Below are positions 53,743-56,266 of a DNA stretch of 64,000 nt, piece after piece. The notes below the pieces were generated by a model. It ran no database searches, was not told the origin of the DNA, and saw only the letters and a list, made by a program, of their open reading frames with translations. Both the position numbers and the translations under genes were made by a program. Numbering within the stretch: the first letter of the stretch is position 1; each line of letters begins with the position of its first letter. Origin of the DNA: Escherichia coli 042 (GTDB lineage Bacteria > Pseudomonadota > Gammaproteobacteria > Enterobacterales > Enterobacteriaceae); assembly GCF_000027125.1 (NCBI RefSeq), contig NC_017626.1; one strand, 5' to 3'.

Positions 53743-54705
53743 AGCTTGGGTCGGGATTTCAAATCCGATCCCCGTTGATGGGGCCGTTACAGTACGCGCA
53801 TATCCGCTTTATGTGAAACAGGAAGATTTTTCTGATATCACTGCCACAGCAAAACACCAATTTCGTGACCAGTACGCGCGCGAGGTGTATCAGTTGCAAA
53901 ATTTTTTGCAGCTGTGTCCGACCAGTACGCACGCGATGGCGGGGAGCACCATAAAACTGTTCTCTACATAAGACAGAGTGGTGGTGATGTGTTGATTATC
54001 GGCGTATATGCGCACAGGACGCGCTATGACGATGTTTTATGCGGGTACACCAATCACATGTATCTGGTGTGATAAATCGCGTTACATGACCTCTCATGTT
54101 GTGCTGGTGGTTATCACGACGTTCTGAATCTGGCCTTTGCCTGGTATTTTGCGACAAGTACGCGCACGTAGCATCGAAATAATCGGATGGCGTATGCTGC
54201 TGGTAATATGAAGACCGATAGCATTAACCGAAAGGATAAAGACTTCTCGATAACGGCAAGGGGGCTGAATTGCGAGGCGAGATTAAGCAACTGTCTTGAA
54301 CGTAAAAATCATGGAGCAACATGATGGTACGATTCATTCCATTCTTCGTTCTTTCTGAGCATTGCGTTCAGGCTTAGTCAAAATTAGTGTTGCGAGCGGA
54401 CCTATTAGTAATTGTTGGTGCGATGCGCCTGTTATGGATTGTTATGGTTGTGGCAGGCCTGATTAATATCCAGTATGACCACCAGCTATGAGAGGCCACC
54501 TCAGTGGTTCGCAGTTGCAGGTTTGCACTCAGGTTCGCAGGGTTTTGGCTACTTTCACGTGCGAACCTGCAGAATTGCAAAGGACAACTAAGTCCTCTGG
54601 CCAACTCCCGGTTTATGAGCGACACAGTCCGCCTGGCGCATCGTTTTCGTCGAGTGCGCCCATCAGCTTGTCCATGGACTATCCACCACTCGATATTAAA
54701 GTTAA

Positions 54706-54891
54706 TCATTGGTTGCCAGCCCGCGAATCAAGTTTGTTCTGGATCCAAGCTTCAACCTCCTCAAGCGACCATCTAGCTGATCTACCAATTTTAACTGGCT
54801 GTGGAAACGTGCCCGTCTTAACCCATGAGTAGATTGCCGTTTTCTTGAAGCCCGTTCTGAGCATGACTTCGCTTAATTTGATAAGGCGCAT
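54706..54891 (-). CDS. Second AlpA-family regulator
   Basis: 61 aa, MRLIKLSEVMLRTGFKKTAIYSWVKTGTFPQPVKIGRSARWSLEEVEAWI, a typical AlpA HTH. Confidence 0.75.
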   Translation of the reverse strand: MRLIKLSEVMLRTGFKKTAIYSWVKTGTFPQPVKIGRSARWSLEEVEAWIQNKLDSRAGNQ

Positions 54892-55409
54892 AGAGGCTCC
54901 TCTGCTTTAGATTAAGCATAGTGACAATCTGGCTTTGGGCGGTATCCAAAAGCGAGGTATCCATGTTGGTATCCACCAAAACGCTGTTTACCAAAAAAGT
55001 TACCACCGGAACAGGACATTTTGAGCTGTAACTTAACACATAGCATATGGAGTTCACGCATAGACTTCACGCACAACGGCTCCGGCCAGTGAAGAATCAC
55101 CCTGGCTGGCAATATAATGCCGATCACCATCAGAGGGGAATCCATGACACCACGAGAAATCGAGCTGCTGACCATTGCCAAGCTGGAGCATGACGGCCAC
55201 CAGCTCAGCCCGGCAGAATTGCGGGAATTAAGGCGCCAGCTGGCAGAGGGCCCTGTAATAGCCAGGCGGTACCGCGAAATGATGACCAGCCCCGCATATC
55301 GCTGGAGCAAACCAGCGCCGCTCCGTGCGCGGTGAGCAGCACCTAACCAGCACTAGACAAGCCCTGTGCTGGTGGATGTCCCTCATAATTAGCGGTTTTT
55401 AAACGGCGT

Positions 55410-55530
55410 GTTGGTTCACGGCCTCTTTTTGTTGGTTCAAAAATGGGGTGTGTTGGTTCACTTTTTGCGAATAATCCTTTTAAAAACAATACTCTTTACA
55501 AATTGAACCAACTGAACCAACTGAACCAAC
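55410..55530. repeat. Iteron cluster 2, inverted copy of cluster 1
   Basis: Three spaced GTTGGTTCA copies (55410–55460), AT-rich spacer with the same AAAACAATACTCTTTACAAAT core, then three tandem TGAACCAAC copies (55504–55530); approximately the reverse complement of cluster 1. Confidence 0.8.
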
Positions 55531-55566
55531 ACCTTTTTGCTTATCTATATAGTCTGAGAGGCAGAA

Positions 55567-55854
55567 ATGATAAGGGACAGGAAAGCTGAAGAGCTGGAGT
55601 CAAAAGGGCTATGCCGGAGAGCTGCCGCACGATGGACAGAAGTCCTGACGCTGGCAGATGGCGATAAAGAACGTGAACATGCAGCAAACAGACGCTCTGA
55701 ATGTATCCGTAGGGCGGCACGCCCACCAGCAACTATAGACAGATTCGGAGATTTAAGACAGGCAGTTAAGCGAACTCATTCGGCTCTTGGTATGGATGAG
55801 GAAGCGAGAGGGTACTTCAGGCGTTATCGTGATAAAGATTGCCAGAGACAGTAA
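55567..55854 (+). CDS. PerC-family transcriptional regulator-like protein
   Basis: 95 aa containing LESKGLCRRAAARWTEVL, close to the signature region of PerC/Pch proteins as remembered. Confidence 0.55.
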   Translation: MIRDRKAEELESKGLCRRAAARWTEVLTLADGDKEREHAANRRSECIRRAARPPATIDRFGDLRQAVKRTHSALGMDEEARGYFRRYRDKDCQRQ

Positions 55855-56266
55855 TGCTCTCTCTGTTTTTGCAAATTACCCCTCACTTTGAAGGGATCGG
55901 AGCTATAAAAATGGTTTTAGGTACATTCCTCAAATTGAGGATTGTGGAAAAACCAATGGGGTAGCCTTTTCCCCCAATGGGGATTTTCGAAAGAATCAAT
56001 GGGTTAGGCCATCGTGCAAATTTGCACTCTGCCAGCCAACGCAATTTCTCGTTGGCGGAAATATCAGGTATTTACTGAACGAACGATCTACCAGTCTGTT
56101 CAGTTACCAGTTGCACATGGCTGTTTCATGTGAGGACGGAGTTTTTTTCGGACATCACTATTGGGTACAGCAATTTCGCGAGCAATACGCACGCGTAACA
56201 AATATGCCTAGCATCTTAGCTACGTGCTGACAAATTTGCGATACTTCCCATCCTGTAGTGTGTTTG

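What the first reader, a model, noticed from the sequence alone, without database searches (positions are those of the whole stretch)
53860..56195. Dispersed copies of an AGTACGC(G/A)C(G/A)CG motif in and around a 960-bp non-coding stretch
Similar segments occur at about 53871 (CCAGTACGCGCGCG), 53921 (CCAGTACGCACGCG), 54155 (CAAGTACGCGCACG) and 56181 (CAATACGCACGCG). The first and last share a longer CAATTTCG-GA-CA-TACGC-CGCG context. The stretch from 53744 to 54705 has no convincing gene. These could be repeated binding sites or relics of recombination or gene decay.
Basis: seen in the sequence. Interest (0 to 1): 0.35.

Follow-up and report, generated by a model that had tools for sequence, protein, structure and literature searches.

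The report
Terminase-gene stubs at satellite island joints
The repeated motif is real, but it is most likely a set of short leftover pieces of a phage DNA-packaging gene sitting at the seams of a patchwork phage-satellite island in E. coli, not a set of regulatory binding sites, although a role as a packaging signal cannot be ruled out.

Summary
AGTACGCRCRCG occurs four times, all on the + strand, within 2.3 kb and nowhere else in the 64 kb. A fifth partial copy lies at 53790.

The window is E. coli. The motif lies in the right half of a 20-kb PICI-type phage satellite (38066-57982) between yicC and dinD.

The copies differ mostly at third codon positions of one frame, which reads F-R/C-D/E-Q/K-Y-A-R/H. 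That peptide is the hallmark block of Sf6-type small terminase (TerS). No intact TerS gene is present; each copy is a stub of 17-55 nt.

The stubs sit at mosaic joints. Homology between related islands breaks 8 nt after copy 3 and directly after copy 4. Copy 3 is followed by a solid relic of a second TerS type (Terminase_2) and then by an IS110 end remnant. In 254 E. coli genomes a similar stub lies 40 nt upstream of a lambda-like cosN.

Best reading: scars of repeated replacement of the packaging module. The stubs are no better conserved than their flanks.

One point is unexplained. The same motif also occurs in clusters in mobile elements of distant bacteria, which keeps a packaging-signal role open.

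The parts
53670..54177 (+). Block I: a conserved, unannotated backbone block holding copies 1-3. It is present in about 10% of complete E. coli genomes.
   Evidence: The stretch 53744-54250 is found in 544 of 5426 genomes at 86-100% identity, with no annotation in most listed rows. The block's left edge is at 53668-53670. Its right edge is at 54177, 54213, 54233 or 54260, depending on the allele.
53786..53805 (+). Partial fifth motif copy (CAGTACGCGCA). It lies in a different frame from the ORF that holds copy 1.
   Evidence: Sequence. The 11.7-kb deletion joint of variants L014/L015 lies at 53801.
53826..53883 (+). Stub A with copy 1 (17-mer at 53867-53883). It reads EDFSDITATAKHQFRDQYAR.
   Evidence: Stub A and stub C differ at 9 aligned sites, 7 of them third codon positions (worked out from the sequence). 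A TerS family HMM hits 53849-53881 weakly.
53891..53914 (.). Palindrome CAGTTGCAAAATTTTTTGCAGCTG, inside the 36-bp segment between copies 1 and 2.
   Evidence: Sequence; the palindrome is perfect in other alleles. Rare variants (P0012, P0033) lack the 53 bp between the two repeats.
53920..53936 (+). Copy 2: a sharp-edged 17-nt repeat with no similarity in its flanks.
   Evidence: It is the most polymorphic copy, varying at 53928, 53931 and 53933.
54140..54177 (+). Stub B with copy 3 (17-mer at 54153-54169). It reads LVFCDKYAHV and forms the right end of Block I.
   Evidence: Homology stops at 54177 in L009, L013, L014, L020 and L037. It matches Sf6 terS nt 170-183 exactly over 14 nt. It is about 91% identical to the post-PerC stub of L037-type islands.
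54187..54324 (+). Relic of the N-terminal HTH part of a Terminase_2-type small terminase gene. It is frameshifted in this allele and forms a 45-aa ORF.
   Evidence: blastn: 81% identity over 73 nt to the Leptolyngbya phage terS, E=8e-8. The 36-aa P0034 variant of this ORF (97% identical to the translated L005 allele) hits 40 phage records, almost all annotated as small terminase, with E down to 8e-8. JGI names P0034 as a phage terminase small subunit (name truncated in the output).
54286..54380 (-). Remnant of the 3' end of an IS110-family element.
   Evidence: This segment matches IS110 transposase ends in most of the roughly 2460 matching genomes. It encodes LNAMLRKNEEWNESYHHVAP*, identical to the transposase C-terminus in strain HS.
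54374..54709 (-). Unassigned 111-aa ORF. Its start overlaps the stop of the second AlpA gene (ATGA).
   Evidence: No Pfam or PHROG family. Not annotated in RefSeq.
54706..54891 (-). Second AlpA-family regulator gene of the island.
   Evidence: Pfam Phage_AlpA, E=1.9e-13.
55400..55540 (.). PICI-type replication origin: three TGTTGGTTCA iterons, an AT-rich spacer, then three inverted iterons.
   Evidence: The layout matches the description in PMC6092414. The region is conserved in all related islands examined.
55567..55854 (+). PerC-family regulator gene.
   Evidence: Pfam PerC, E=2e-29.
55907..56009 (+). Two adjacent fragments of Roi/Rha-type antirepressor N-termini; further gene debris.
56143..56196 (+). 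Stub C with copy 4 (56180-56196). With one frameshift it reads FFSDIT...QQFREQYARV.
   Evidence: Among the islands aligned it is present only in those at the yicC/dinD site. Homology to related islands ends at 56195 in many genomes.
56196..57943 (-). Cargo cassette (doc toxin gene plus a 351-aa gene). It is inserted directly after copy 4 and abuts the attR core.
   Evidence: It replaces 69 bp found in L005-type islands.
57960..57982 (+). attR core (CGTGTACATAAGGGTGTACATAAT). The attL partner is at about 38055-38077.

Best explanation
The motif copies are short stubs of former coding sequence. They are the codons for the most conserved block, F-R-D/E-Q/K-Y-A-R, of Sf6-type small terminase (TerS), the protein that chooses which DNA a phage packages.

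They sit at the seams between exchangeable modules of a PICI-type phage satellite. I infer that the island's packaging-specificity locus was overwritten several times: an Sf6-type terS, then a Terminase_2-type terS, then an IS110 insertion and deletion. In sister islands the replacement was a cos site.

Each exchange was joined at or next to this conserved patch and left a stub. The resulting direct repeats then promoted further small deletions.

Shown: the repeats exist, their divergence is codon-like, they lie at breakpoints, and other relics sit next to them. Inferred: the TerS parentage of the stubs, the order of events, and the absence of a present-day function.
For: 1. Non-random, same-strand cluster.

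2. Codon-like divergence. Across the copies and their alleles the third codon is CGT, CGA, CGC or CGG. The others vary as GAC/GAG, CAG/CAA/AAG and GCG/GCA. Stub A and stub C differ at 9 aligned sites, 7 of them third positions.

3. The peptide is the TerS hallmark. A DNA pattern for FRDQYARAR hit 81 places in viral contigs, and 77 of them lie in ORFs of 110-254 aa, nearly all reading ...ATVFRWL.....FRDQYARAREAQAD.... One such ORF scores Pfam Sf6_terminase at E=1.6e-39. An HMM built from 58 such proteins, run on the six-frame translation of the whole window, hits only copies 1 and 4. Sf6 terS itself shares 14 nt exactly with copy 3.

4. Breakpoints follow the motif: 54177 and 56195.

5. Copy 3 is followed by a well-supported relic of a different TerS family and then by an IS110 end. 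In 254 genomes a stub about 91% identical to copy 3 lies 40 nt upstream of a lambda-like cosN. The stubs therefore mark packaging loci.

6. The region is full of other debris and of frame-breaking indels. Gene callers read the stretch in all three frames. An exhaustive search finds no protein family for it.

7. The copies are no better conserved than their flanks: 6 of 51 sites vary against 41 of 457, p=0.45.
Against: - The match to TerS covers only 8-12 residues. The HMM scores are near zero, tblastn E-values are 0.2-1.2 in a 4-kb search, and Pfam does not report it.
- Upstream DNA-binding-domain sequence is not recognisable in any stub.
- Neutral decay does not explain why only the hallmark patch survives, or why there are several copies.
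- The same motif occurs in clusters of 2-4 in mobile elements of distant bacteria, which suggests that something selects for it.
- A weak alternative alignment to DUF4222 exists.
- Block I is young (about 95% identical among copies), so the conservation test has little power.
Confidence: 0.5

Rival explanations
1. The stubs are working packaging signals. In this reading they are copies of the recognition (pac) site that lies inside Sf6-type terS genes, kept by the satellite so that a helper phage terminase packages the island. The helper could be a P22-like phage, given the island's P22-type ejection-protein genes.
For: - In P22-like phages the pac site lies inside the terS gene (PMC9611059; PMC8022706).
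- From my own recollection of Leavitt et al. 2013, which I could not retrieve: the Sf6 site lies in the part of the gene that encodes the DNA-binding domain.
- PICIs are known to carry helper pac or cos sites, and EcCICFT073 has two cos sites (PMC6092414).
- All stubs share one orientation.
- One stub sits 40 nt from cosN in 254 genomes.
- Only the hallmark patch survives, in several copies. Similar clusters occur in integrative or mobilisable elements in other phyla.
- The island carries gp14/7/20/16 homologues.
Against: - The Sf6 pac site has not been mapped to these bases in anything I could read.
- In 55 distinct Sf6-type terS sequences, the invariant run over the motif is 14 nt, tied with another run and shorter than one of 23 nt.
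- The E. coli stubs read YAR, not the YAK of the local Sf6-type alleles.
- The stubs show no excess conservation.
- No helper phage is known.
Confidence: 0.2
2. The stubs are relics of a different gene family, for example DUF4222, which has an intact member in the island. The resemblance to the TerS hallmark would then be coincidence.
For: - The DUF4222 motif VTFYRDGY...F...F can be aligned by eye with VTVRAY...F and with QFRDQYAREVYQLQNF.
- A natural deletion fuses DUF4222 codon 39 in frame to 53801.
- The Shimwellia copy lies 165 nt upstream of isrK/C4, the neighbourhood that holds DUF4222 in E. coli.
Against: - Pfam aligns the chimera P0024 to DUF4222 only over the genuine N-terminal part.
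- Pfam reports nothing for stub A.
- The contiguous 8-of-9 match is to the TerS hallmark.
- The extended forms found in other bacteria (EEFRDQYARARE) are clearly of the TerS type.
Confidence: 0.13
3. The copies are binding sites for an island protein: an integrase arm site, an AlpA/excisionase site, a PerC operator or replication iterons.
For: - The copies are direct repeats.
- In L005-type islands copy 4 lies about 85 bp from the attR core, where arm sites would be expected.
- In Hymenobacter the cluster lies between a primase-like gene and a DUF3987 helicase-like gene and includes a perfect palindrome.
Against: - There is no copy at attL or near int, even allowing 3 mismatches in 17 nt.
- The visible integrase-type repeats are TGTACA motifs.
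- The known PICI iterons are a different sequence, at 55400-55540.
- Copies 1-3 lie 2-4 kb from attR.
- The variation is codon-like, which a protein-binding site would not require.
- There is no excess conservation.
Confidence: 0.08
4. The stretch encodes a structured non-coding RNA, with the motif as a recurring element of it.
For: The block is conserved and mostly unannotated in hundreds of genomes. The island carries other small RNAs.
Against: - There is no Rfam match in the region, even at E up to 1.
- Folding z-scores are -1.0 and -1.8.
- The only freely varying base of the motif does not co-vary with a pairing partner.
- Indels are frequent.
Confidence: 0.03

Closest known systems
Sf6-type small terminase genes (Pfam PF20901) and the pac site inside them
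   Same: The motif encodes the family's hallmark block, FRDQYAR(A). The reading frame and the codon-level variation match, and there are 14-18 nt of near identity with Sf6 terS.
   Different: There is no gene here, only stubs of 17-55 nt in several copies. They lack the HTH domain, the oligomerisation helix and a neighbouring TerL gene. Whether these bases are part of any pac site is unknown.
cos sites of E. coli PICIs such as EcCICFT073 (PMC6092414, PMC6739421, PMC9026076)
   Same: The element type is the same: int, alpA, pri-rep, iteron origin and PerC. There is more than one packaging-related site per island. In sister islands a stub lies 40 nt upstream of a lambda-like cosN.
   Different: This window has no cosN near the stubs and no Rpp gene was identified. 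The published PICI cosQ is described as nearly identical to that of lambda, and the stub does not resemble it.
Short conserved boundary ('linker') sequences at module joints in lambdoid phage genomes (my own knowledge: Susskind and Botstein's modular theory; Clark et al. 2001)
   Same: A short conserved patch lies exactly where homology between related elements starts or stops. This fits recombination that is promoted, or recorded, at that patch.
   Different: Here the patch is a fragment from inside a gene rather than an intergenic linker, and it occurs as several dispersed stubs inside a satellite.
Terminase_2-type small terminase (Pfam PF03592)
   Same: The segment 54187-54300 is a genuine relic of the N-terminal HTH region. 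The P0034 variant of this ORF is 60-68% identical to the best-matching phage TerS sequences over about 33 residues.
   Different: It is truncated after about 36-45 codons and is frameshifted in this allele. It is below the reach of the Pfam and PHROG profiles. The motif itself lies just outside the supported part.

Membership tests
Sf6-type small terminase (PF20901) | Hallmark block (E/Q)FRDQYARARE at the junction of the DNA-binding and oligomerisation domains | tested here: met
   Copy 1 reads QFRDQYARE, copy 4 QFREQYARV, copy 3 VFCDKYAHV, and the L037 stub VFRDKYARA. The hallmark was established from 77 ORFs of TerS size that carry it.
Sf6-type small terminase (PF20901) | Significant profile match over the domain | tested here: not met
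   No Pfam hit at E up to 1-10. My own family HMM gives 0.8 and -2.9 bits over about 11 residues.
Sf6-type small terminase (PF20901) | Intact ORF of about 130-200 aa with an N-terminal HTH, next to a large terminase gene | tested here: not met
   The open frames around the copies are short or frame-broken. No TerL is annotated in the island.
Terminase_2 small terminase (PF03592), for 54187-54324 only | Sequence similarity to the N-terminal HTH region of family members | tested here: met
   blastn E=8e-8. tblastn of the unedited 36-aa ORF P0034 gives 40 phage hits, almost all TerS, with E down to 8e-8. The phage partner scores Pfam Terminase_2 at E=1.5e-14.
Terminase_2 small terminase (PF03592), for 54187-54324 only | Full-length protein that passes the Pfam threshold | tested here: not met
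   No Pfam or PHROG hit for the relic peptides. The ORF is 36-45 aa long.
pac site (terminase recognition site) | Terminase-dependent packaging starts at or near the site, and the site is needed in cis for transfer | not testable with these tools
   This needs virion DNA end mapping or transfer assays with deletion mutants.
pac site (terminase recognition site) | DNA-level constraint beyond coding needs in helper terS genes | tested here: inconclusive
   In 55 distinct Sf6-type terS sequences, the invariant run over the motif is 14 nt, tied with another run and shorter than one of 23 nt.
cos site (lambda-like) | cosN 12-mer GGGCGGCGACCT next to the element | tested here: not met
   The window has no match in the region. 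Sister islands carry TAGCGGCGACCT 40 nt after their stub.
Repeated protein-binding sites (iterons, operators, arm sites) | Copies better conserved than the surrounding sequence | tested here: not met
   6 of 51 sites vary inside the copies against 41 of 457 outside, Fisher p=0.45, across 15 distinct alleles.
Repeated protein-binding sites (iterons, operators, arm sites) | For integrase arm sites: copies on both sides of the att core | tested here: not met
   No copy near attL or int, allowing 3 mismatches in 17 nt.
PICI-type phage satellite (the host element) | int, alpA, pri-rep, an iteron origin with an AT-rich centre, flanking att repeats, and a size of about 10-20 kb | tested here: met
   Annotation, iterons, att core repeat. 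The features are as listed in PMC6092414.
PICI-type phage satellite (the host element) | Absence of phage structural genes | tested here: not met
   The island carries homologues of the P22 ejection-protein cluster: DUF2824, a gene annotated 'phage DNA ejection protein' and two large neighbouring genes.

The most novel reading that the evidence does not exclude
The stubs are not debris. They are a portable packaging tag: the 30-40 bp that encode the FRDQYAR(ARE) block of Sf6-type small terminase are also the site that this terminase recognises.

Satellites and integrative or mobilisable elements in several phyla would then keep arrays of this tag so that passing phages package them. Cases seen here are E. 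coli, Rhizobium, Microvirga, Duganella, Camelimonas and possibly Hymenobacter. That would be a widespread, sequence-defined mechanism of hitch-hiking.
Probability: 0.15. Interest if true: 0.75.

Novelty: new member of a known kind. Interest (0 to 1): 0.4.

Why it matters
On the main reading this is ordinary. It shows how a satellite island's packaging locus is repeatedly overwritten, and how short conserved gene patches end up marking the seams.

It also explains a conserved 0.5-kb stretch that is mostly unannotated and is found in about 10% of complete E. coli genomes.

The less likely reading matters more. If the surviving patch is what Sf6-type terminases recognise, it would give a simple sequence marker for which islands and mobilisable elements can be carried by which phages. 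It would also place the recognition site of a large terminase family within a short stretch of the gene.

Tried and rejected
- **Protein homologues of stub A.** tblastn of the copy-1 ORF against plasmids and phages found nothing informative. Word-indexed searches found only variants of the same locus, or nothing. An exhaustive HMMER search with P0027 found only variants of this locus, so stub A belongs to no protein family.

- **Profile libraries.** Pfam and PHROG scans of the stubs and of frameshift-corrected peptides gave no family.

- **Reading copy 3 as part of the Terminase_2 relic.** I first read FCDKYAH as that family's FCLAY block. The upstream DNA shows no significant similarity to seven family members, and the mosaic break at 54177 separates the two pieces. 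I dropped this reading.

- **RelE/ParE toxin.** I noticed by eye a resemblance in the sequence downstream of copy 2. No search supports it.

- **Structured RNA.** No Rfam match and unremarkable folding energies.

- **Promoter or terminator.** Nothing in the stretch stood out.

- **Homology to a phage cos region.** Only the 10-nt cosN core is shared.

- **Leavitt et al. 2013.** I could not retrieve the paper.
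Full report
**1. The observation**

The pattern AGTACGCRCRCG, allowing one mismatch, matches at 53871, 53924, 54157 and 56184. All four are on the + strand and there are no others in the 64 kb. Dinucleotide shuffles give a mean of 1.1 matches and never more than 3. The 10-mer TACGCRCRCG gives the same four sites against 0.5 expected.

The copies are the cores of longer repeats. One is a 17-mer, GACCAGTACGCGCGCGA, present four times. The other is a 29-mer shared by copies 1, 3 and 4. A fifth, partial copy (CAGTACGCGCA) lies at 53790.

**2. Where it lies**

The window is E. coli; 53700-54710 is 100% identical to strain U15A. The motif lies in the right half of an island of about 20 kb between yicC and dinD. 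The island is bounded by a repeated att core, CGTGTACATA..GGTGTACATAAT, at about 38066 and 57971.

The island carries:
- an integrase, an AlpA regulator and a TOPRIM-DUF927 primase;
- an origin made of TGTTGGTTCA iterons around an AT-rich centre (55400-55540);
- a PerC gene.

This is the make-up described for E. coli phage-inducible chromosomal islands, or PICIs (PMC6092414). Unusually, the island also carries homologues of the P22 ejection-protein genes.

RefSeq annotates nothing between 53744 and 54705.

**3. The region is a mosaic, and the copies sit at its seams**

The stretch 53744-54250 is found in 544 of 5426 complete E. coli genomes at 86-100% identity, with no annotation in most listed rows. 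Comparison with about 30 related islands shows the following layout:
- a conserved Block I (53670 to 54177, 54213, 54233 or 54260);
- then variable cargo;
- then a conserved origin-PerC block (55408-55647).

In five loci homology stops at 54177, which is 8 nt after copy 3. Many genomes show the same end point.

Downstream of PerC, homology to many genomes ends at 56195, the last base of copy 4. In this window a doc-toxin cassette of 1.75 kb follows directly and runs up to the attR core. It replaces 69 bp found in other islands.

In three genomes, truncated lambdoid prophage genes are joined to 54046-54061.

**4. The copies diverged as coding sequence**

In the frame TTT-CGN-GAC-CAG-TAC-GCG-CGC the copies and their alleles carry:
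- CGT, CGA, CGC or CGG (also TGC or CAC) at the second codon;
- GAC or GAG at the third;
- CAG, CAA or AAG at the fourth;
- GCG or GCA at the sixth.

The stubs around copies 1 and 4 differ at nine aligned sites, and seven of these are third codon positions. The encoded peptide is F-R/C-D/E-Q/K-Y-A-R/H.

The present-day stretch is nevertheless not a gene:
- Close relatives differ by frame-breaking indels.
- Gene callers read it in all three frames.
- An exhaustive profile search of 1.8 billion proteins finds only variants of this same locus.
- Rare variants have lost the 53 bp between copies 1 and 2. These two direct repeats flank a palindrome.

**5. Which gene**

A DNA pattern built from copies 1 and 4 found one viral contig, apart from near-identical copies of this stretch. 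There the pattern lies in a small terminase of the Sf6 type (Pfam PF20901, E=1.6e-39).

A pattern for FRDQYARAR then hit 81 places in viral contigs. Of these, 77 lie in ORFs of 110-254 aa, nearly all reading ...ATVFRWL.....FRDQYARAREAQAD..IADD. This block is therefore the hallmark of that family.

Sf6 terS itself reads AKHEDFRDKYAKA, against AKHQFRDQYARE in copy 1. It shares 14 nt exactly with copy 3.

An HMM built from 58 family members, run on the six-frame translation of the whole window, hits only copies 1 and 4. The scores are near zero, because only about 11 residues match. Pfam reports nothing. The TerS parentage is therefore the best available reading, not a proven one. A weaker alignment to DUF4222 is possible, but the DUF4222 profile does not support it.

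**6. The neighbours point to packaging**

Directly after copy 3, the segment 54187-54300 is a solid relic of the N-terminal part of a different small terminase family, Terminase_2:
- It is 81% identical over 73 nt to a cyanophage terS, E=8e-8 against 2.3 Gb.
- The unedited 36-aa variant of this ORF (P0034, 97% identical to the translated L005 allele) hits 40 phage records, nearly all annotated as small terminase, with E down to 8e-8.
- JGI names that ORF as a phage terminase small subunit (name truncated in the output).

The relic is cut off by a 95-nt remnant of an IS110-family element. This remnant encodes the last 20 residues of the transposase exactly.

In sister islands a stub about 91% identical to copy 3 lies just after PerC and 40 nt upstream of TAGCGGCGACCT, a close match to lambda cosN. 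This arrangement is present in 254 of 5426 genomes. E. coli PICIs are known to carry cos sites, sometimes two (PMC6092414; PMC9026076).

The stubs therefore mark the places where these islands keep their packaging specificity. What follows the stub differs from island to island.

**7. Most likely history**

I infer that an Sf6-type terS once stood at these positions and that its body was replaced more than once. The replacements were another terS, a cos site, or cargo. Each joint fell at or just after the most conserved patch of the gene, and decay and small deletions followed.

Other debris nearby fits this picture, for example two adjacent fragments of Roi-type antirepressor N-termini at 55907-56009.

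Among 15 distinct E. coli alleles, the motif copies are no better conserved than their flanks: 6 of 51 sites vary against 41 of 457, p=0.45. There is no Rfam match and no unusual folding energy. No copy lies near the integrase.

**8. What does not fit**

Neutral decay does not explain why only the hallmark patch survives, nor why it survives in several copies.

A scan of one genome per species with ATTTYGNGACMAGTACGCGC returned 16 loci, against about 2 expected by my own rough estimate. The loci come from very distant bacteria. Only one holds an intact terS. In most others the motif lies in short open frames, and in about half of the loci a second to fourth close copy lies nearby, mostly on the same strand:
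- Rhizobium has four: FRSKYARTRTRE, FRDQYAHAREAG, FRTKYARAREAG and FREQYARAREG.
- Microvirga has two: EEFRDQYARARETR and EEFCDQYARAREIR.
- Duganella has two in tandem, just after the Mob_Pre relaxase domain and within the same open frame.
- Camelimonas has three.
- Hymenobacter has four, between a primase-like gene and a DUF3987 gene of an integrative element.

In P22-like phages the pac site lies inside the terS gene (PMC9611059; PMC8022706). As I recall from Leavitt et al. 2013, which I could not retrieve, the Sf6 site lies in the part that encodes the DNA-binding domain. A role for the stubs as terminase recognition tags therefore stays open.

The test I could run was inconclusive. In 55 distinct Sf6-type terS sequences, the invariant run over the motif is 14 nt, which is not exceptional.

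**9. Verdict**

On that reading the finding is a new example of a known kind of thing and of modest interest. The clustered occurrence of the same patch in unrelated mobile elements is the one unexplained point, and it is worth an experiment.

Noticed in passing
48646-53304: A PICI-like satellite carries homologues of the P22 ejection-protein cluster: DUF2824 (gp14-like), then genes of 225, 473 and 701 aa, one of them annotated 'phage DNA ejection protein'. Satellites of this type are described as lacking phage structural genes. This hints that the helper is a P22-like phage.
   Followed up: partly
39403-39469, 42478-42555, 42618-42705: Rfam finds an int-alpA RNA, isrK and a C4 antisense RNA in the left half of the island. 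isrK and C4 lie inside an ORF that RefSeq annotates as 'ash family protein' (42097-43164). That ORF may not be a real gene.
   Followed up: no
47902-48022 and 55400-55540: The island has two origin-like iteron regions in opposite orientation. One follows the primase gene and the other precedes PerC. Together with a second AlpA gene on the - strand (54706-54891), this suggests that the island is a composite of two satellite-like elements.
   Followed up: partly
54286-54380 (- strand): A 95-nt remnant of an IS110-family element end encodes the last 20 residues of the transposase exactly as in strain HS. The same segment matches IS110 ends in most of the roughly 2460 genomes that match 53700-54710.
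   Followed up: yes
55907-56009: Two adjacent fragments are homologous to the same N-terminal part of Roi/Rha-type antirepressors (KNG..PQIEDCG.TNG and FPPMGIFERINGLG). Some sister islands have about 140 bp more of such repeats. This is the same 'several stubs of one gene part' pattern as the motif.
   Followed up: partly
56196-57943: A cassette with a doc-family toxin gene and a 351-aa gene with weak ORF6N/antirepressor similarity replaces 69 bp of other islands. It reaches to within about 10 bp of the attR core, so this island's excision arm may be altered.
   Followed up: partly
54374-54709 (- strand): A 111-aa ORF starts in an ATGA overlap with the stop of the AlpA gene, a layout typical of translational coupling. 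It has no Pfam or PHROG family and is not annotated in RefSeq.
   Followed up: no
L014 and L015 (metagenome contigs); window 42038/53801: An island variant has lost 11.7 kb. The DUF4222 gene is fused in frame at codon 39 to the sequence at 53801, giving the chimeric protein P0024. The joint lies next to the partial fifth motif copy.
   Followed up: partly
L019, L020, L004; window 54046-54061: In three genomes, lambdoid prophage genes cut off at different points (a large terminase, a RusA and an HTH gene) are joined to nearly the same point of Block I. That point acts as a one-sided recombination or deletion end.
   Followed up: partly
L134 (Rhizobium) 817-1170, L144 (Hymenobacter) 1700-1890, L130 (Microvirga), L133 (Duganella), L137 (Camelimonas): Clusters of 2-4 copies of TTTCGNGACCAGTACGCGCG, mostly on one strand, lie in mobile elements of distant bacteria, mostly outside intact terminase genes. 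In Hymenobacter two copies form a perfect palindrome just upstream of a DUF3987 gene.
   Followed up: partly
58267-59103: The window is not identical to strain U15A to the right of the island. It has about 1.09 kb more, apparently dinD (a 278-aa ORF whose start aligns with the annotated dinD of strain T309.Ta3).
   Followed up: no
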